From: Escherichia phage dhaeg | Sequence record: MN850609.1 | Direction: 5' to 3' (one strand) | DNA: 64,000 nucleotides | Part shown: positions 2,623 through 63,475 of the stretch, piece by piece | How positions within the stretch are numbered: position 1 is the stretch's first letter | Layout of the letters: each line of letters opens with the position of its first letter | Program-made: the position numbers and the translations under genes | Notes under the pieces: generated by a model | What the model was told of the DNA's origin: nothing | The model's input: the letters and a program-made list of their open reading frames with translations, nothing else | The model's database searches: none

Positions 2623-3177
2623 ATGAGTTTATATGATAACCTTATATCAAATATTGATTGGTTTAAAAATAGTGGTCTTTCCCATGAAACCAATTCAGTT
2701 CTTTATAGAATTCGCCAAGACCTAGGCTATTCAAACGATTTCTTAAGCAGAACATCTAGCCGTGGCGATACTACCAAATTACCTTTTATTTTTGCTTTAG
2801 CTGAAGACCTTTCTTTTGAAGATGCTTTGGAAATTATTGACGTAAATCTGGCTATTCAACGAGTGGAATTCGCTGGACTACGTTATTCAGTATATTCTTT
2901 AAATGAGAGCAATGATTGCGTGCTTCTTAATATGGCAGACGATGATTACCATTTAGTATGCTATGTGGCTTTAGAAAATGGTGATGTATTTGGAATGGTC
3001 GACCGCCGCCCAACTTATACTGATATTAAAAATTATGATAAAGATGAGCTTCTTGATTTGGCGGCTGAGTACACATTAGAGAGTCGTAAACGGAAACGTA
3101 AGCTTAATCGTTTTATTGCTGAATGTCGTGAATATGCTAAAGGGGTTCAAAATGCGAACGTTATATCTGCCAAGTAA
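2623..3177 (+). CDS. Hypothetical protein
   Basis: SD GGAGGAGAGGAGAATATTATG. Confidence 0.65.
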   Translation: MSLYDNLISNIDWFKNSGLSHETNSVLYRIRQDLGYSNDFLSRTSSRGDTTKLPFIFALAEDLSFEDALEIIDVNLAIQRVEFAGLRYSVYSLNESNDCVLLNMADDDYHLVCYVALENGDVFGMVDRRPTYTDIKNYDKDELLDLAAEYTLESRKRKRKLNRFIAECREYAKGVQNANVISAK

Positions 3178-7133: not shown

Positions 7134-7172
7134 TGTACAAGGTCTATAGGTGTGATACTATAGACCTATCAA
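7134..7172 (+). promoter_or_regulatory. Early promoter cassette (variant -35 GTGTAC; TGaTACTATAGACCTATCAA)
   Basis: TACTAT 7156-7161, conserved box follows. Confidence 0.5.
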
Positions 7173-9666: not shown

Positions 9667-9674
9667 TATAAATA
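9667..9674 (+). promoter_or_regulatory. T4-type late promoter TATAAATA for lysozyme gene, inside SD-sequestering hairpin region
   Basis: Exact TATAAATA; followed by inverted repeat CCTCC-TATAATCA-GGAGG that contains the SD of e. Confidence 0.55.
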
Positions 9675-9696
9675 CCTCCTATAATCAGGAGGTATT

Positions 9697-29369: not shown

Positions 29370-29398
29370 TTTACAAACTCTTGGGACCAGAGTATAAT
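29369..29398 (+). promoter_or_regulatory. Early promoter (GTTTAC -35, TATAAT -10 inside GGGACCA/TGGTCCC inverted repeat)
   Basis: GTTTAC 29369-29374, TATAAT 29393-29398. Confidence 0.5.
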
Positions 29399-29437
29399 GG
29401 TCCCACGGATTATAAATTTTAAACTGAGGAAATTATT

Positions 29438-50776: not shown

Positions 50777-50818
50777 GTTTACATCGGTCTATGGTAGTGA
50801 TACTATAGACCTATCAAC
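50777..50818 (+). promoter_or_regulatory. Early promoter cassette (GTTTAC-N18-TGaTACTATAGACCTATCAAC)
   Basis: GTTTAC 50777-50782, TACTAT 50801-50806. Confidence 0.6.
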
Positions 50819-60148: not shown

Positions 60149-60819
60149 AAGATATAATTATTGACTTCGAAACCTTTGCTACTACTCAAAATGCGGCGGT
60201 TATTGACCTCGCCGTAATTGCTTATGACCCCAATCCAGAGGTAGTAGAATCTTTTGAAGAGCTTACACAACGCGGCCTTCGTATTAAATTCGATTTGGCT
60301 TCTCAACGTGATAAACGTCTGTTCTCTAAAAGCACATTGCAGTGGTGGAAAGAACAAGGACCTGAAGCACGTAAAAACCTGGCTCCGTCTGAAATTGATG
60401 TGAGTACTTCTATCGGCCTTGGTAATTTCTTGGAATACTGCCGTAAAAACGAAGTGGACCAATGGAAATCCCAGATGTGGTGCCGTGGAATGTCCTTTGA
60501 CTTTCCGATCTTAGTGGACCTTATTCGCGATGCTTATCGTTCTGAAGGTGTTCCTGAGAACGAAATCGATACAACTAAGTTGGAACCGGTTAAATTCTGG
60601 AACCAACGTGATATCCGTACAGCTATTGAAGCGTATTCACTGACACGCGGATTGAGCATGTGCCCTCTGCCTAACGGAACCTTGAATGGCTTTGTTGCTC
60701 ACGACTCTATCCATGACTGTGCTAAGGATATCTTGATGCTGAAATATGCCCAACGATATGCTTTAAACCTGGAAGATGTTCCTGAGTATCCAGACCCATT
60801 AAGTATAAAAAATCGGTAA
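60145..60819 (+). CDS. dexA: Exonuclease A (DnaQ-like 3'-5' exonuclease)
   Basis: N-term IIIDFETFA (Exo I DxE), 224 aa; position after dda as in T4. Confidence 0.85.
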   Translation: MKDIIIDFETFATTQNAAVIDLAVIAYDPNPEVVESFEELTQRGLRIKFDLASQRDKRLFSKSTLQWWKEQGPEARKNLAPSEIDVSTSIGLGNFLEYCRKNEVDQWKSQMWCRGMSFDFPILVDLIRDAYRSEGVPENEIDTTKLEPVKFWNQRDIRTAIEAYSLTRGLSMCPLPNGTLNGFVAHDSIHDCAKDILMLKYAQRYALNLEDVPEYPDPLSIKNR

Positions 60820-60823
60820 AAGT

Positions 60824-60864
60824 GTTTACTTCTCCTCATGACATGATACTATAACCCTATCAAC
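60824..60864 (+). promoter_or_regulatory. Early promoter cassette with perfect 11-bp stem arms TTCTCCTCATG / CATGAGGAGAA flanking the -10
   Basis: GTTTAC 60824-60829, TACTAT 60847-60852. Confidence 0.6.
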
Positions 60865-60878
60865 ATGAGGAGAACAAA

Positions 60879-61382
60879 ATGAAAATTTATCGAGTCGAGT
60901 CATCGTTCAGTATCTTAGATAATAGTGATGCTATCGCAATTACTCGCCAGCAATGCCGCCAATTAACACCTTATAGAGGCTCATTTGATGAATGGAGCGA
61001 AGGCTGGTTATTGGAAGTAGGTTTTGACAGGCCTAATTTTAGACACCATCATACTAATAATAAAAGCATCCCACTACCAAGTCAAGATGAATTGTTGGTT
61101 AAAAATTCTAATGCAGTAATTAAAACCAAATTCGAACATGAAGATTATAAAGGTGTAGATAACTATATCCCTGGTTGGTTTGTTAACCTCTACCATTTTG
61201 CTTTTGCCAGCGAGTATGATATGATGCGCTGGTTCACTCGTGAAGAGCGTGCGGAATTATCTTCTAAAGGATTCTACCTTGCTGTTTACGAAATCCCTGA
61301 AGATGAGGTTGTCATTGGTGACCGCCAAGTAATGTTCCGCAAATCCCATGCTGAACTCGTAGATTTTATTGAAATGAGATAA
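60879..61382 (+). CDS. Hypothetical protein
   Basis: SD CATGAGGAGAACAAAATG. Confidence 0.6.
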   Translation: MKIYRVESSFSILDNSDAIAITRQQCRQLTPYRGSFDEWSEGWLLEVGFDRPNFRHHHTNNKSIPLPSQDELLVKNSNAVIKTKFEHEDYKGVDNYIPGWFVNLYHFAFASEYDMMRWFTREERAELSSKGFYLAVYEIPEDEVVIGDRQVMFRKSHAELVDFIEMR

Positions 61383-61384
61383 TT

Positions 61385-61936
61385 ATGAAATTTAATTATA
61401 ATCCTAAATACACACCGAACCCAGCAGCCAAATTGATTGATTTTGATGTTTTAAGCACTTATGTGGCCCCTATTGAACCATTAGAAATTAAGGAAACCAC
61501 TATGACTACTCAGACTATCGAAATCGGCAAAACCTACAAACTGGTTGAACCTGAAATTAAAACTAAGGCCTTGATTTCTGGTTATAAAACTCTGACTGAT
61601 GTTTTTGGCGAAGGCGAATTTATTGTTGAAGAATTCGCCAAAAGTGACTGGTTTACTAAATCTTACGTAATCCACGGCCGCCGGTTAGATAATAATAGAA
61701 TAGAGAAAACCCTAGTCTATGAAGCTGAATTTGGGCTTTTCCGTGAAGTCAGAGTCGAACAAGACCCTACCGACCTGTTGTGTGCTGCTGTGGCTATCCG
61801 TCGTCCTTTTGATAATCCTATCTGTGGTTGGGTAACAGACCAATGGATTGAAGATGGTGTTGAACTGCTGAACGTTGTACATGCTGGTGATTTTAGCATA
61901 GTACCTCGTAGTGCAGTGGTTAATGTATTGAATTAA
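61385..61936 (+). CDS. Hypothetical protein, paralog A (C-terminal GWVTDQWIEDGVEL domain)
   Basis: Shares C-terminal motif with 62010-62576. Confidence 0.6.
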   Translation: MKFNYNPKYTPNPAAKLIDFDVLSTYVAPIEPLEIKETTMTTQTIEIGKTYKLVEPEIKTKALISGYKTLTDVFGEGEFIVEEFAKSDWFTKSYVIHGRRLDNNRIEKTLVYEAEFGLFREVRVEQDPTDLLCAAVAIRRPFDNPICGWVTDQWIEDGVELLNVVHAGDFSIVPRSAVVNVLN

Positions 61937-61938
61937 TA

Positions 61939-61967
61939 GTTTACTTTATCGAGAGCCATGTTATAAT
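61939..61967 (+). promoter_or_regulatory. Early promoter (GTTTAC-N17-TATAAT) with -10 inside inverted repeat GAGAGCCAT/ATGGCTCTC
   Basis: GTTTAC 61939-61944, TATAAT 61962-61967. Confidence 0.5.
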
Positions 61968-62009
61968 GGCTCTCATGGATTATAAACCTTTAACCAAGAG
62001 AGAAAAATT

Positions 62010-62576
62010 ATGATTACTATTTCCGATATCGGCAGTATCGTTCGTGTATCCAAAAAGTCTCGTTCAAAAGCTGCGGGCAGTTTAGTTGAAGTTGTTAGCA
62101 TCCAACTTAAAGAAGGTGTCAGTGAAGAAAATTATGAAGTAAAAGTTCGTATCATTCCTAAAAATCGCCAGACTGAAACTCAATTCGGTTATGTGCGTGC
62201 TAAATTCTTGGAATCGACTGAATTTACCGGATACATCGCTCCTGTAGTTGAAGAAGTTGAATCCCATGATGGGTATGTATGTGAAAGCAATGATATCCGT
62301 GGCGTAGTAGCTCAAGACATTGAAACTATTGACCAATCTCATGTCGGCGTTGATTTCAAATGGAAATTAGGTCGAGGAGTGTGTTTTAATACTCCTAAAC
62401 CGTTCAAATATGTTGACGAACCTTTTGGTACTTACGAAACCAGTAGCATGTCTGGTTACATCACAGACCAGTGGGTTGAAGGTGGCGTTAAGCTCTATAA
62501 CATCGTGTTCCTTGGAACCTTTAAAGTGGTTCCTGAAAGCTTTATTGTTGAATATGCTAATATTCATCGTGCATAA
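62010..62576 (+). CDS. Hypothetical protein, paralog B (C-terminal GYITDQWVEGGVKL domain)
   Basis: SD AGAGAGAAAAATTATG; shares C-terminal motif with 61385-61936. Confidence 0.6.
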   Translation: MITISDIGSIVRVSKKSRSKAAGSLVEVVSIQLKEGVSEENYEVKVRIIPKNRQTETQFGYVRAKFLESTEFTGYIAPVVEEVESHDGYVCESNDIRGVVAQDIETIDQSHVGVDFKWKLGRGVCFNTPKPFKYVDEPFGTYETSSMSGYITDQWVEGGVKLYNIVFLGTFKVVPESFIVEYANIHRA

Positions 62577-62588
62577 AGTTTAAAAACA

Positions 62589-62630
62589 GTATACAATACG
62601 GTAGGGTAGTGATACTATTACCCTATCAAC
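62589..62630 (+). promoter_or_regulatory. Early promoter cassette variant (GTATAC ... TGaTACTATTACCCTATCAAC)
   Basis: TACTAT 62613-62618; conserved CCTATCAAC. Confidence 0.5.
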
Positions 62631-62648
62631 AAATGAGAGGAAAATAAA

Positions 62649-62867
62649 ATGGCTAAAGTTACTGTGAACTCGACTCGTGAAGAATTTGAAGATGTTCTGT
62701 TCAACCCTGATTTAATCGTGGTTCAAAAGGAACATTCTGATACGTTTTCTCATTTATCGTCGGTTTATGTATACGAAAATCAAGGTGATAAAAACCCTAT
62801 ATATGCAGTGTTCCGTGAAATCACTGCTGAAGGCACCGACTTCTGGAAGGAAACTTACAATGCTTAA
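62649..62867 (+). CDS. Hypothetical small protein
   Basis: SD GAGAGGAAAATAAAATG. Confidence 0.55.
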   Translation: MAKVTVNSTREEFEDVLFNPDLIVVQKEHSDTFSHLSSVYVYENQGDKNPIYAVFREITAEGTDFWKETYNA

Positions 62868-63297
62868 TCAAGAACTCGAATTTGAAAAAGGTAAATGGTA
62901 CTATTTTAAAGATGATGCTGCAGAAGCTGAATTCCGTAAGCTGAATTCCCATAATATTAGGACTCCTAATAATTCTTCTATAGCAGATATTATTGTCAAT
63001 TCTGAAGGTTTTTGCCCTGTTAGATTAGCGGCAGGATATGTGATGAACGTAGACTTGGCTTATGGCGATAACATTGATATGGTTTTATATCCAAGCGAGC
63101 GTAAATTCTTTACGGAAATGGTTGTAGTTGACAGTGAAGACGAATGGGCCGAAGATGGTTTCTCTGAAGACGAAGACCAGTCTGAAGATGCGGCTCCATT
63201 TGAACCGAGTGATTTCCCTTTGACTAAAATCACTATCTCTAATAATTCTGAAGCCTGGACTGTTTACCAGATGCTAAAAGCTCACTTTAAGGAATAA
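62860..63297 (+). CDS. Hypothetical acidic protein
   Basis: ATG 62860 after SD GGAAGGAAA. Confidence 0.55.
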   Translation: MLNQELEFEKGKWYYFKDDAAEAEFRKLNSHNIRTPNNSSIADIIVNSEGFCPVRLAAGYVMNVDLAYGDNIDMVLYPSERKFFTEMVVVDSEDEWAEDGFSEDEDQSEDAAPFEPSDFPLTKITISNNSEAWTVYQMLKAHFKE

Positions 63298-63298
63298 T

Positions 63299-63475
63299 AT
63301 GCCACTTTATGATTACAAATGCCAATCCGAAGACTGTGCAAAAGAATACGAAAAAATCAAGAAAATCTCTGAAAGAGATAATGATATTTGTCCTGATTGC
63401 CATAGGCTGGCTGTTCGGTTAGTCTCGGCCCCTAAACATGTTAATGGCGGTTTTTACGACCTGCTGACTAAGTGA
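63299..63475 (+). CDS. Small zinc-ribbon protein (FmdB-like CxxC...CxxC)
   Basis: YKCQSEDCAKEYE...DICPDCH; 58 aa. Confidence 0.4.
   Translation: MPLYDYKCQSEDCAKEYEKIKKISERDNDICPDCHRLAVRLVSAPKHVNGGFYDLLTK

What the first reader, a model, noticed from the sequence alone, without database searches (positions are those of the whole stretch)
61385..62576. Two adjacent paralogs sharing a conserved C-terminal domain near gene 39
ORFs 61385-61936 and 62010-62576 share a C-terminal block (GWVTDQWIEDGVELLNVVHAGDFSIVP vs GYITDQWVEGGVKLYNIVFLGTFKVVP) with divergent N-terminal halves. They are separated by an early promoter with the -10 inside a hairpin, suggesting module duplication and diversification.
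Basis: seen in the sequence. Interest (0 to 1): 0.35.

Follow-up and report, generated by a model that had tools for sequence, protein, structure and literature searches.

The report
MotB.1 and MotB phage paralogs
The two neighbouring genes are motB.1 and motB of a T4-like coliphage; their shared C-terminal domain, and the early promoter whose -10 box sits in a hairpin between them, are both real and both already described in the literature.

Summary
The window is Escherichia phage CLB_P2 (Dhakavirus, T4-like). ORF 61385-61936 is MotB.1 and ORF 62010-62576 is MotB.

Their C-terminal similarity is significant:
- BLASTP gives 18/40 identical, E 3e-11.
- Profile-profile comparison gives 98% probability, E 3e-14, over about 50 columns.
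- No third copy exists in the window.

Patterson-West et al. 2021 (PMC7827196) already reported the shared C-terminal domain (CTD), the different N-terminal domains (NTDs), the adjacency and a duplication hypothesis. Kim et al. 2025 (PMC12152347) described the MotB.1 NTD as LSm-like. The promoter with its -10 in a hairpin loop fits the published "PeSL" cassette (PMC2839356, PMC4122927). It recurs eight times in the window and flanks motB on both sides.

What I add:
- The shared unit is a five-strand small beta-barrel, 58 aa in MotB.1 and 75 aa in MotB. It is acidic or neutral and has no shared basic residues.
- Three Klebsiella/Enterobacter T4-like phages carry one gene at this locus, with a MotB-type KOW NTD and a MotB.1-type CTD. 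This supports duplication plus an N-terminal domain swap.
- The T4 reference MotB.1 (119 aa) is a frameshift-truncated form that I found only in the reference sequence.

The parts
60879..61382 (+). motB.2 homologue (167 aa), the upstream neighbour. Its stop lies 2 nt before the motB.1 start codon.
   Evidence: Matches phrog_1106 at E 1e-50. JS98 annotates the syntenic gene as motB.2.
61385..61936 (+). motB.1 (183 aa, acidic, pI 4.9).
   Evidence: Matches phrog_2333 at E 8e-85. JS98 synteny and annotation. It is 100% identical to CLB_P2 protein P0001. The start at 61385 is supported by dN/dS 0.10 over codons 1-41 against JS98.
61433..61498 (+). Conserved but predicted-disordered motif LIDFDVLSTYVAPIEPLEIKET (aa 17-38). 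The same motif serves as an inter-domain linker in other family members.
   Evidence: pLDDT is below 50 for aa 1-41. The motif recurs in P0229, P0241, P0245, P0265, P0268 and others. Purifying selection acts on it.
61508..61759 (+). MotB.1 N-terminal beta-barrel (aa 42-125), the LSm-like/SH3-like domain type shared with GoF and Frd.2.
   Evidence: AF2 predicts strands 50-53, 78-86, 93-100, 106-112 and 119-121 plus helix 61-74, with pLDDT about 85-91. There is a weak hit to the GoF family phrog_622 at E 1.1e-4. Published assignment: PMC12152347. BLASTP against the window's GoF is not significant.
61760..61933 (+). MotB.1 C-terminal domain (aa 126-183), the shared MotB-type module. Net charge -5.
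   Evidence: hhalign. AF2 strands 135-138, 146-156, 159-166, 169-174 and 178-180. Charge. CTD alignment A6.
61939..62009 (+). PeSL-type cassette. It has an AT-rich lead, -35 (G)TTTACT at 61939-61945 and hairpin arms at 61951-61959 and 61966-61974. The -10 TATAAT at 61962-61967 lies in the loop and 3' arm. A Shine-Dalgarno sequence (SD) GAGAG follows at 61998-62002, then the motB ATG.
   Evidence: A promoter is annotated at the same place in phages DalCa and fPS-65. Definition of PeSL: PMC2839356 and PMC4122927.
62010..62576 (+). motB (188 aa).
   Evidence: Pfam PF17613 at E 5e-61 and phrog_1671 at E 5e-70. JS98 annotation.
62010..62216 (+). MotB N-terminal KOW-like barrel (aa 1-69). It is basic (+4, pI 9.7) and contains VSKKSRSKAAG.
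   Evidence: AF2. Charge. KOW assignment in PMC7827196. Invariant residues.
62217..62339 (+). Acidic, predicted-disordered linker (aa 70-110, net -9). It is absent from T4 MotB and appears homologous to the linker of the single-gene forms (SH..DGYV..).
   Evidence: pLDDT about 33. Alignments. Charge.
62340..62573 (+). MotB C-terminal domain (aa 111-188).
   Evidence: AF2 strands 123-136, 140-157, 160-167, 170-175 and 179-182. hhalign. BLASTP.
62590..62648 (+). Second PeSL-like cassette, downstream of motB and upstream of cef. It has TATACA at 62590-62595, a 17-nt spacer and TACTAT at 62613-62618 inside the loop of hairpin 62602-62625.
   Evidence: Its loop and upstream sequence resemble the elements at 7140 and 50786.
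62649..62867 (+). cef (72 aa), the downstream neighbour.
   Evidence: Pfam T4_Cef at E 8.5e-34. JS98 annotation.

Best explanation
The two ORFs are the early genes motB.1 and motB of a T4-like (Dhakavirus) coliphage. They are ancient paralogs. Each protein is a two-barrel protein: an N-terminal small beta-barrel, a flexible linker, and a shared five-stranded C-terminal barrel. That C-terminal barrel is 58 aa in MotB.1 and 75 aa in MotB, which has a longer first hairpin.

Most likely origin: an ancestral single gene (KOW barrel, DxDVxxMY linker motif, CTD), as still found in Klebsiella/Enterobacter T4-like phages, was duplicated in tandem. The upstream copy exchanged its KOW barrel for one or more LSm-like, GoF-type barrels. 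The downstream copy kept the basic KOW barrel while its CTD diverged.

Function, shown elsewhere for T4 only: MotB binds DNA tightly and non-specifically, copurifies with H-NS and StpA, changes H-NS footprints, and doubles burst size. Deleting MotB.1 has no known phenotype.

My inference (about 0.4): the basic KOW NTD supplies MotB's DNA binding. The shared CTD is acidic or neutral, and its family-wide invariant residues are F, G, D, W, E, G, L, N and V, with no K or R. It would then be a common partner-binding or oligomerisation module that couples different nucleic-acid-binding heads (DNA for MotB, possibly RNA for MotB.1) to the same target.

The spacer between the genes is a PeSL cassette, that is, a strong sigma-70 early promoter whose -10 lies in a conserved hairpin. 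The predicted start site is about 61975, so motB transcripts that begin there lack the hairpin. Read-through transcripts from motB.1 carry the hairpin at or near their 3' end, where it would attenuate or stabilise them (inferred). motB is bracketed by two such cassettes, the arrangement proposed to let T4-type phages shuffle gene modules.
For: Identity and synteny:
- The window is 100% identical to phage CLB_P2, and JS98 annotates the same genes as motB.2, motB.1, motB, cef and goF.
- Pfam and PHROG matches agree.

Paralogy:
-.
- The published statement of the same relationship is in PMC7827196.

Structure:
- AF2 models have mean pLDDT 71.7 and 75.2, and the same order of five strands in both CTDs.
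- Foldseek retrieves the same tandem SH3-like proteins for both (53BP1 tandem Tudor, Spt5 KOW6-7, tandem Agenet/SAWADEE) at E 1.5e-3 to 1e-2.
- The viral structure library returns MotB.1 and MotB relatives and a KOW-domain protein.

Origin:
- Three Klebsiella/Enterobacter T4-like phages (two classified as Kanagawavirus, one unclassified) have one gene between motB.2 or dexA and cef, with a KOW NTD, the linker motif and a MotB.1-type CTD.
- An exhaustive profile search of 1.84 billion representatives finds 36 hits. About 27 are small proteins, including such hybrids.
- MotB.1 relatives have one or two swappable N-terminal barrels.

Charges. T4 MotB biology: PMC6070864 and PMC7827196.

PeSL:
-.
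- 79 of 80 stem pairs are kept across 10 elements, with compensatory changes at 6 of 8 positions.
- There are 8 elements with the -10 in a hairpin on the + strand, against 0.46 +/- 0.73 in shuffles.
Against: - No experiment exists for this phage.
- The role I propose for the CTD rests only on charge and conservation. The 2021 paper assigns the MotB CTD to an OB fold that could itself bind DNA.
- No Foldseek match to a solved structure reaches E <= 1e-3, and TM-scores are low (0.2-0.4), so SH3-like versus OB is not settled.
- The direction of evolution rests on three sampled single-gene genomes and parsimony, not on a rooted tree.
- The hairpin has no U-tract and is not called as an intrinsic terminator.
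Confidence: 0.8

Rival explanations
1. The shared CTD is an OB-fold nucleic-acid-binding domain, as predicted by HHpred for T4 MotB. Both proteins would bind DNA or RNA through it, and the N-terminal barrels would only modulate binding.
For: PMC7827196 assigns the MotB CTD to SCOPe b.40.4.5 through eIF5A hits. OB and SH3-like barrels are both five-stranded, and my models cannot tell them apart with confidence.
Against: The CTD has net charge -5 in MotB.1 and 0 in MotB, and no basic residue is conserved across both families. Foldseek's best matches for both whole models are tandem Tudor, KOW and Agenet proteins, not OB proteins. eIF5A itself is an SH3-like/KOW domain followed by an OB domain, so the NTD may have driven the HHpred hit (my own knowledge).
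Confidence: 0.3
2. The gene pair did not arise by tandem duplication in place. Instead motB.1 was assembled by PeSL-mediated or homologous recombination that brought a CTD-encoding cassette, or a foreign N-terminal module, next to motB.
For: - motB is flanked by two PeSL-like cassettes.
- The T4 motB PeSL stem is the same as a different CLB_P2 element at 29382-29405.
- The N-terminal modules of MotB.1 are clearly shuffled.
- The CTD-coding DNA has unusually low synonymous divergence between CLB_P2 and JS98 (dS 0.05, against 0.27-0.55 upstream).
Against: No PeSL lies upstream of motB.1, which is translationally coupled to motB.2. The pair is syntenic in four genera. This rival differs from the best explanation only in how the second copy arrived.
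Confidence: 0.25
3. The hairpin is chiefly a transcription terminator or attenuator, or a 3'-end stabiliser, for the motB.1 transcript. Its overlap with the -10 box would be incidental.
For: PeSL stem-loops of RB49 reduced downstream lacZ expression about as much as a strong terminator (PMC2839356). The stem is maintained by compensatory changes.
Against: There is no U-tract after the stem, and the terminator scan does not call it. The same placement of the -10 in the loop recurs in 8 elements, far above chance, so the overlap is a designed feature. The two functions do not exclude each other.
Confidence: 0.3
4. The C-terminal similarity is chance or compositional.
For: None beyond the short length of the block (40 aa).
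Against: BLASTP gives E 3e-11. The Pfam hit is above the curated cut-off. hhalign gives E 3e-14. The reciprocal HMM hits are unique within the window.
Confidence: 0.01

Closest known systems
Bacteriophage T4 MotB and MotB.1 (Patterson-West et al. 2018 and 2021, PMC6070864 and PMC7827196; Pfam PF17613)
   Same: The genes are orthologous and in the same order (motB.2, motB.1, motB, cef, goF, 39). The architecture is the same: a KOW-like NTD in MotB, a different NTD in MotB.1 and a shared CTD. Both are early genes. The duplication hypothesis is already stated there.
   Different: - CLB_P2 MotB carries a 41-aa acidic linker absent from T4 MotB, giving pI 5.3 against 9.2.
- CLB_P2 MotB.1 is the long 183-aa form. 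It has an N-terminal linker motif and a barrel whose sequence is distant from T4's.
- The T4 reference MotB.1 is truncated inside the shared block.
LSm-like fold family GoF / MotB.1 / Frd.2 of Tevenvirinae (Kim et al. 2025, PMC12152347)
   Same: The MotB.1 NTD is a five-strand bent beta-sheet barrel. There is a weak profile link to the GoF family phrog_622.
   Different: That paper analysed the 13.8-kDa T4 protein and treated the CTDs as 'various structures'. Here the CTD is complete, and it is the conserved part of the protein (majority fraction 0.85, against 0.58 for the NTD).
PeSL (promoter-early stem-loop) cassettes of T4-type phages (Arbiol et al. 2010, PMC2839356; Comeau et al. 2014, PMC4122927)
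   Same: It has an AT-rich lead, a TTTACW-N16/17-TAYWAT promoter, a stem-loop overlapping the -10, then SD and ATG. It is intergenic in a hyperplastic early region, repeated in the genome, and flanks a small non-essential gene.
   Different: PeSLs were described in RB49/phi1, PST/T4 and nt-1/KVP40, not in Dhakavirus. In the PST figure the stems lie upstream of the promoter, whereas here, as in RB49, they overlap the -10. Terminator activity and recombination were not tested here.
Tandem Tudor / tandem KOW / tandem Agenet proteins (53BP1, Spt5 KOW6-7, SHH1 SAWADEE)
   Same: The predicted fold is two small SH3-like beta-barrels in tandem. These are the best solved-structure matches for both paralogs.
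   Different: Sequence identity is 7-17%, E-values are only 1e-3 to 1e-2 and TM-scores are 0.2-0.4. The resemblance is one of fold class only, not of homology or function.

Membership tests
MotB (Pfam PF17613 / phrog_1671), ORF 62010-62576 | Full-length match to the family profile above the curated cut-off | tested here: met
   205.6 bits against a cut-off of 25, with both halves of the profile matched. phrog_1671 matches at E 4.6e-70 over aa 5-188.
MotB (Pfam PF17613 / phrog_1671), ORF 62010-62576 | Position between motB.1 and cef in the dda-to-gene-39 early cluster | tested here: met
   The order is the same as in JS98 and T4.
MotB (Pfam PF17613 / phrog_1671), ORF 62010-62576 | N-terminal KOW-like barrel with the basic VSxxSRSKAAG loop | tested here: met
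   V13, S14, S17, S19 and G23 are invariant across 32 homologues. AF2 predicts a beta NTD. Net charge is +4.
MotB (Pfam PF17613 / phrog_1671), ORF 62010-62576 | Tight non-specific DNA binding, H-NS/StpA co-purification and toxicity in E. coli | not testable with these tools
   Shown only for T4 MotB (PMC6070864, PMC7827196). The CLB_P2 protein is acidic overall (pI 5.3), so the behaviour may differ.
MotB.1 (phrog_2333), ORF 61385-61936 | Full-length match to the family profile | tested here: met
   phrog_2333 matches at E 7.9e-85 over aa 1-183. There are 194 homologues, the best 120 of them 68-100% identical.
MotB.1 (phrog_2333), ORF 61385-61936 | MotB-type C-terminal domain with the DPTDLL...GWVTDQWIEDGVELLNVVH...VVPRS signature | tested here: met
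   Alignments A3 and A6. Pfam motB hits aa 144-178 at 33.6 bits.
MotB.1 (phrog_2333), ORF 61385-61936 | N-terminal LSm-like/SH3-like barrel related to GoF and Frd.2 | tested here: inconclusive
   AF2 predicts a barrel with one helix at high confidence. phrog_622 (the GoF family) matches at E 1.1e-4. BLASTP against the window's GoF is not significant. MAFFT aligns it with the T4-type NTD, with I45, Y51 and F79 invariant.
MotB.1 (phrog_2333), ORF 61385-61936 | Gene immediately upstream of motB | tested here: met
PeSL cassette, 61939-62009 | Sigma-70-like early promoter of the T-even type (TTTACW, N17, TAYWAT) with an AT-rich upstream region | tested here: met
   TTTACT-16-TATAAT (17 nt if read as GTTTAC), with TG before the -10. 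The upstream sequence is tattgaattaatag. 21 such promoters lie on the + strand and 1 on the - strand.
PeSL cassette, 61939-62009 | Stable stem-loop between the -35 and -10, or overlapping the -10 | tested here: met
   The stem is 9 bp and the loop contains TATA of the -10. Folding energy is -20.1 kcal/mol, z = -4.2. Compensatory changes occur across genera.
PeSL cassette, 61939-62009 | Shine-Dalgarno sequence and start codon of the downstream gene at the 3' end | tested here: met
   GAGAG at 61998-62002 and ATG at 62010.
PeSL cassette, 61939-62009 | Repeated element concentrated in hyperplastic early regions and flanking small non-essential ORFs | tested here: met
   Eight elements in the window against 0.46 expected. 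One lies on each side of motB.
PeSL cassette, 61939-62009 | Promoter and terminator/attenuator activity; recombination between copies | not testable with these tools
   The only indirect hint is that the T4 motB element has the same stem as the CLB_P2 element at 29382-29405.
OB-fold (cold-shock-like) assignment of the shared CTD | Five-strand barrel with OB topology, and structural matches to OB proteins | tested here: inconclusive
   Five strands are predicted. The best matches to solved structures are SH3-like tandem domains, none at E <= 1e-3. No PDB relative is found by sequence profile.

The most novel reading that the evidence does not exclude
The shared C-terminal barrel is not a nucleic-acid-binding domain. 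It would be a partner-binding or hetero-oligomerisation module through which MotB (DNA head) and MotB.1 (LSm-like head) act on one host target such as H-NS/StpA, or on each other. The published experiments on MotB.1 appear to have used the frameshift-truncated 119-aa reference form, which lacks about half of this module. If so, the real function of MotB.1 has never been tested.
Probability: 0.2. Interest if true: 0.45.

Novelty: already known. Interest (0 to 1): 0.15.

Why it matters
The finding itself repeats published work, so it matters little for discovery.

The side results could help people who work on T4 host takeover:
- They give exact boundaries for the shared module.
- They show that the module is acidic and lacks conserved basic residues. 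This points experiments towards the KOW head for DNA binding and towards the CTD for partner binding.
- They identify single-gene KOW-plus-CTD forms that look like the ancestral state.
- They flag that the reference T4 MotB.1, apparently the form used in the 2025 functional study (13.8 kDa), is truncated within the conserved module. All 13 other T4 records carry a 143-aa gene.

Tried and rejected
- **PDB sequence searches with both proteins.** The only hits were designed 'Pizza' beta-propellers (E 0.015-0.4, five to six stretches of 3-5 bits) and a kinase (E 0.036). I rejected these as matches to a short YVTD-like repeat motif. The same artefact explains the 567-1156-aa multi-stretch hits in the representative search.
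- **PDB search with the CTD profile.** Nothing scored below E about 1.
- **Rfam on 60800-63400.** The only hit was a sub-threshold DapZ match (23.9 bits against 56), which I rejected.
- **Terminator scan.** The hairpin is not called as a terminator because it lacks a T-run.
- **BLASTP of the MotB.1 NTD against the window's GoF.** Not significant. The link rests on a weak PHROG profile hit and on the literature.
- **MAFFT alignments of the hairpin elements.** MAFFT put the 3' arms out of register, so I counted pairs on an ungapped alignment anchored at the -10 instead of using count of structure pairs.
- **A third copy of the CTD in the window.** None found.
- **Recent duplication or gene conversion between the two copies.** Rejected: DNA identity is only 55-74%.
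- **Start of ORF1 at the internal ATG (M40, 61502), as annotated for the 141-aa forms.** Rejected as the only start, because codons 1-41 show dN/dS 0.10.
Full report
**What the region is.** The 2.6 kb around the finding is 100% identical to Escherichia phage CLB_P2 (Straboviridae, Tevenvirinae, Dhakavirus) and about 91% identical to JS98 and IME08. JS98 carries T4 nomenclature. It names the syntenic genes dda, dexA.1, dexA, motB.2, motB.1, motB, cef, a goF-like gene, 39.2, 39.1 and 39, and T4 has the same order. ORF 61385-61936 is therefore MotB.1 and ORF 62010-62576 is MotB. Gene 39 begins about 1.2 kb downstream.

Pfam and PHROGs agree. ORF2 matches Pfam motB PF17613 over its full length (E 5e-61) and phrog_1671 (E 5e-70). 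ORF1 matches phrog_2333 (E 8e-85). ORF1 also matches Pfam motB, but only through its last 35 residues (33.6 bits, above the cut-off of 25).

**Check of the observation.**
- BLASTP of the two proteins gives one ungapped segment, aa 144-183 against aa 145-184, with 18/40 identities and E 3e-11.
- I built family alignments of 32 MotB and 30 MotB.1 sequences. Profile-profile comparison of them extends the homology to MotB 120-182 and MotB.1 132-181 (50 columns, 42% identity, probability 98.2%, E 3e-14). MotB carries an extra 11-13 residues between the first two strands.
- HMMs of either CTD find only the other ORF among 1015 six-frame fragments of the 64-kb window (E 2e-12 and 2e-14; next best above 0.1). 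There are therefore exactly two copies.
- At DNA level the blocks are 74% identical over 47 nt and 55% over 120 nt. The duplication is old and the copies are not being homogenised.

**It is already published.** Patterson-West et al. [quoted passage not shown] They sort 102 phage homologues into MotB and three MotB.1-type categories. They predict a KOW NTD and an OB-fold CTD for MotB by HHpred. Kim et al. [quoted passage not shown] They also show that a T4 motB.1 deletion has wild-type burst size.

**Structure.**
- AF2 on the MotB alignment gives mean pLDDT 71.7. It predicts a beta NTD (aa 1-68), a disordered segment (aa 71-109, pLDDT about 33) and a CTD with strands 123-136, 140-157, 160-167, 170-175 and 179-182.
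- AF2 on MotB.1 gives mean pLDDT 75.2. Residues 1-41 are disordered. The NTD barrel with one helix spans aa 44-122. The CTD has strands 135-138, 146-156, 159-166, 169-174 and 178-180, in the same order as in MotB.
- Foldseek against solved structures returns the same set for both models. These are 53BP1 tandem Tudor, Spt5 KOW6-KOW7, tandem Agenet, and SAWADEE/UHRF1 tandem Tudor. E-values are 1.5e-3 to 1e-2, none reaches 1e-3, and TM-scores are low.
- I read this as two small SH3-like barrels in tandem. I regard OB versus SH3 for the CTD as unsettled.
- Against predicted viral structures the top hits are MotB.1 and MotB relatives and a "KOW domain-containing protein". No PDB relative is detectable by sequence.

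**What the shared module may do (inference).** T4 MotB is basic (pI 9.23, as the 2018 paper also says). It binds DNA non-specifically, copurifies with H-NS and StpA, and alters H-NS footprints. In CLB_P2 the charge is unevenly distributed:

| Segment | Net charge | pI |
|---|---|---|
| MotB NTD (aa 1-69) | +4 | 9.7 |
| MotB linker (aa 70-110) | -9 | 4.05 |
| MotB CTD (aa 111-188) | 0 | 6.92 |
| MotB.1 CTD (aa 126-183) | -5 | 4.19 |
| MotB.1 whole protein | -8 | 4.9 |

In the joint CTD alignment the invariant residues are F, G, D, W, E, G, L, N and V. The near-invariant residues are D, Q, G, V and P. No lysine or arginine is shared. The CTD is also the most conserved part of MotB.1 (majority fraction 0.85, against 0.58 for the NTD).

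I therefore favour, at about 0.4, a division of labour. The N-terminal heads bind nucleic acid: KOW for DNA, and the LSm-like head perhaps for RNA. The common CTD binds a shared partner or mediates oligomerisation. The published alternative, an OB-fold CTD that binds nucleic acid itself, is not excluded.

**Origin.** A profile of the CTD, searched exhaustively against 1.84 billion representative proteins, finds only 36 hits. About 27 are small proteins. The long multi-stretch hits match a short repeat motif and are spurious.

Several of the small proteins combine a MotB-type KOW NTD, a DxDVxxMY..P linker motif and a MotB.1-type CTD. In two Kanagawavirus phages (KLB31, ZX14) and one unclassified Klebsiella phage (CP-p-KP-21072), such a protein is the only gene between motB.2 or dexA and cef. 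A deletion between the two coliphage paralogs would fuse the LSm-like head to a CTD, not the KOW head to a MotB.1-type CTD. These single genes are therefore better explained as the ancestral architecture.

Their linker (SHVQA.DGYVVDTDV..MY) aligns with the acidic insert of Dhakavirus MotB (ESHDGYVCESNDIRG). That insert is thus probably ancestral and was lost in T4. MotB.1 relatives carry one or two N-terminal barrels of different subtypes and place the linker motif in different positions. This shows continuing domain shuffling at the 5' end against a nearly fixed 3' end.

**The promoter in the hairpin.**
- The spacer holds (G)TTTACT at 61939-61945 and TG-TATAAT with the -10 at 61962-61967.
- It also holds a perfect 9-bp hairpin, with arms at 61951-61959 and 61966-61974, whose loop and first 3'-arm bases contain the -10.
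- As RNA it folds at -20.1 kcal/mol, z = -4.2.
- The same architecture sits between motB.1 and motB in Dhakavirus (JS98, WG01), Tequatrovirus (T4, RB3, DalCa, e11/2) and Gaprivervirus (RZ, VR20, SP18), but with different stems. Mosigvirus has only a weaker 5-bp stem upstream of the -10.
- On an ungapped alignment of ten elements anchored at the -10, 79 of 80 stem positions form standard pairs, with compensatory changes at six of eight positions.
- Window-wide, 21 T-even-type early promoter matches lie on the + strand and one on the - strand.
- Eight hairpins of at least 7 bp enclose a -10 hexamer on the + strand, against 0.46 +/- 0.73 in 100 first-order shuffles.
- These fall into two visible subtypes. 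One has loop ..gTATAAt (1922, 29382, 61951). The other has loop ..gtgaTACTAT (7140, 50786, 62602).
- The element at 62602-62625 lies between motB and cef, so motB is bracketed by two cassettes.

All this matches the PeSL as defined by Arbiol et al. [quoted passage not shown] That paper also demonstrated promoter and terminator activity in RB49. Comeau et al. 2014 give the T4/PST consensus as TTTACW-N17-TAYWAT.

The predicted start site is about 61975, so motB mRNA made from this promoter would lack the hairpin. Only read-through RNA from upstream contains it (inference). The hairpin has no U-tract and is not called as an intrinsic terminator.

**A side result on T4.** The reference T4 motB.1 (119 aa) ends inside the shared block (...GGWVTDQWIGRWR*). 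T4 reads ATTGGAAGATGG where CLB_P2 has ATTGAAGATGG. The next frame continues EDGVELLNVVHAGEYSVVPRSAVVAILN*. The corrected 143-aa protein is identical to a protein seen on 256 contigs, whereas the 119-aa form is seen on 2.

Only AF158101.6 and NC_000866.4 match the reference 201-nt segment at 100%. Thirteen other T4 records, plus RB55 and RB59, match over 200 nt at 99.5%. T4 MT984581 annotates a 432-nt, 143-aa motB.1. The 2025 study reports the 13.8-kDa protein and does not mention a frameshift.

**Verdict.** The feature is real, correctly described and correctly interpreted, but it is textbook-level for T4 specialists: novelty "already known", interest low. The functional reading of the CTD and the ancestral-single-gene scenario are inferences that go modestly beyond the literature.

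Noticed in passing
L003 (T4 NC_000866) 2792-3151, minus strand, and the 150-nt spacer after it; not in the window: The T4 reference motB.1 (119 aa) carries one extra G that truncates it inside the shared CTD. Thirteen other T4 records, plus RB55 and RB59, lack the extra base and encode 143 aa. The 143-aa protein is on 256 contigs and the 119-aa form on 2. The 2025 functional paper reports the 13.8-kDa form.
   Followed up: yes
window 62649-62867 and 62767-63297: The CLB_P2 GenBank record (RAST annotation) has no cef gene and calls the goF-like gene from 62767, overlapping cef by 100 nt. Pfam T4_Cef (E 8.5e-34) and the JS98 annotation indicate cef at 62649-62867 and goF starting at the ATG at 62860, which gives 145 aa.
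   Followed up: partly
window + strand: 1457-1488, 1922-1943, 7140-7167, 9671-9696, 29382-29405, 50786-50811, 61951-61974, 62602-62625: Eight hairpins of at least 7 bp enclose a -10 hexamer, against 0.46 expected by chance. Most have a GT(T/G/A)TAC -35 upstream and SD plus ATG downstream. Two loop subtypes are visible. The element at 29382 has the same stem as T4's motB promoter hairpin.
   Followed up: partly
window 61433-61498 (MotB.1 aa 17-38): A conserved motif ([ILF]D[FM]D[IV]xxxY[VG]xx[IV]xP) is predicted disordered but is under purifying selection (dN/dS 0.10). It recurs at different positions in family members: before the barrel, between two barrels, or between barrel and CTD. It also forms the linker of the single-gene KOW forms. 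It looks like a short linear binding motif.
   Followed up: partly
window 62217-62339 (MotB aa 70-110): Dhakavirus MotB has a 41-aa acidic, predicted-disordered segment (net -9) that T4 MotB lacks. It makes the whole protein acidic (pI 5.3 against 9.2), which may change or auto-inhibit DNA binding.
   Followed up: partly
P0276 (43 aa, from the representative search): This protein joins the first 14 residues of MotB.2 (MKIYRVESSFSILD) to the last 27 residues of the MotB.1 CTD. It is presumably a deletion that removes most of motB.2 and motB.1, and may be comparable to the 29-aa RB69 'category 3' peptide of the 2021 paper.
   Followed up: no
P0055, P0069, P0077, P0082, P0245, P0247, P0250 (244-251 aa MotB.1 relatives): Some MotB.1 proteins carry two N-terminal barrels of different subtypes ahead of the same CTD. 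The N-terminal module is therefore duplicated and swapped independently of the CTD.
   Followed up: partly
window 61760-61933 against L001 (JS98): Synonymous divergence between CLB_P2 and JS98 is much lower in the CTD-coding part of motB.1 (dS 0.05) than in the N-terminal parts (0.27-0.55). The CTD 3' end plus the promoter cassette is also conserved at DNA level across genera. It may be a recombination anchor or carry an extra constraint.
   Followed up: no
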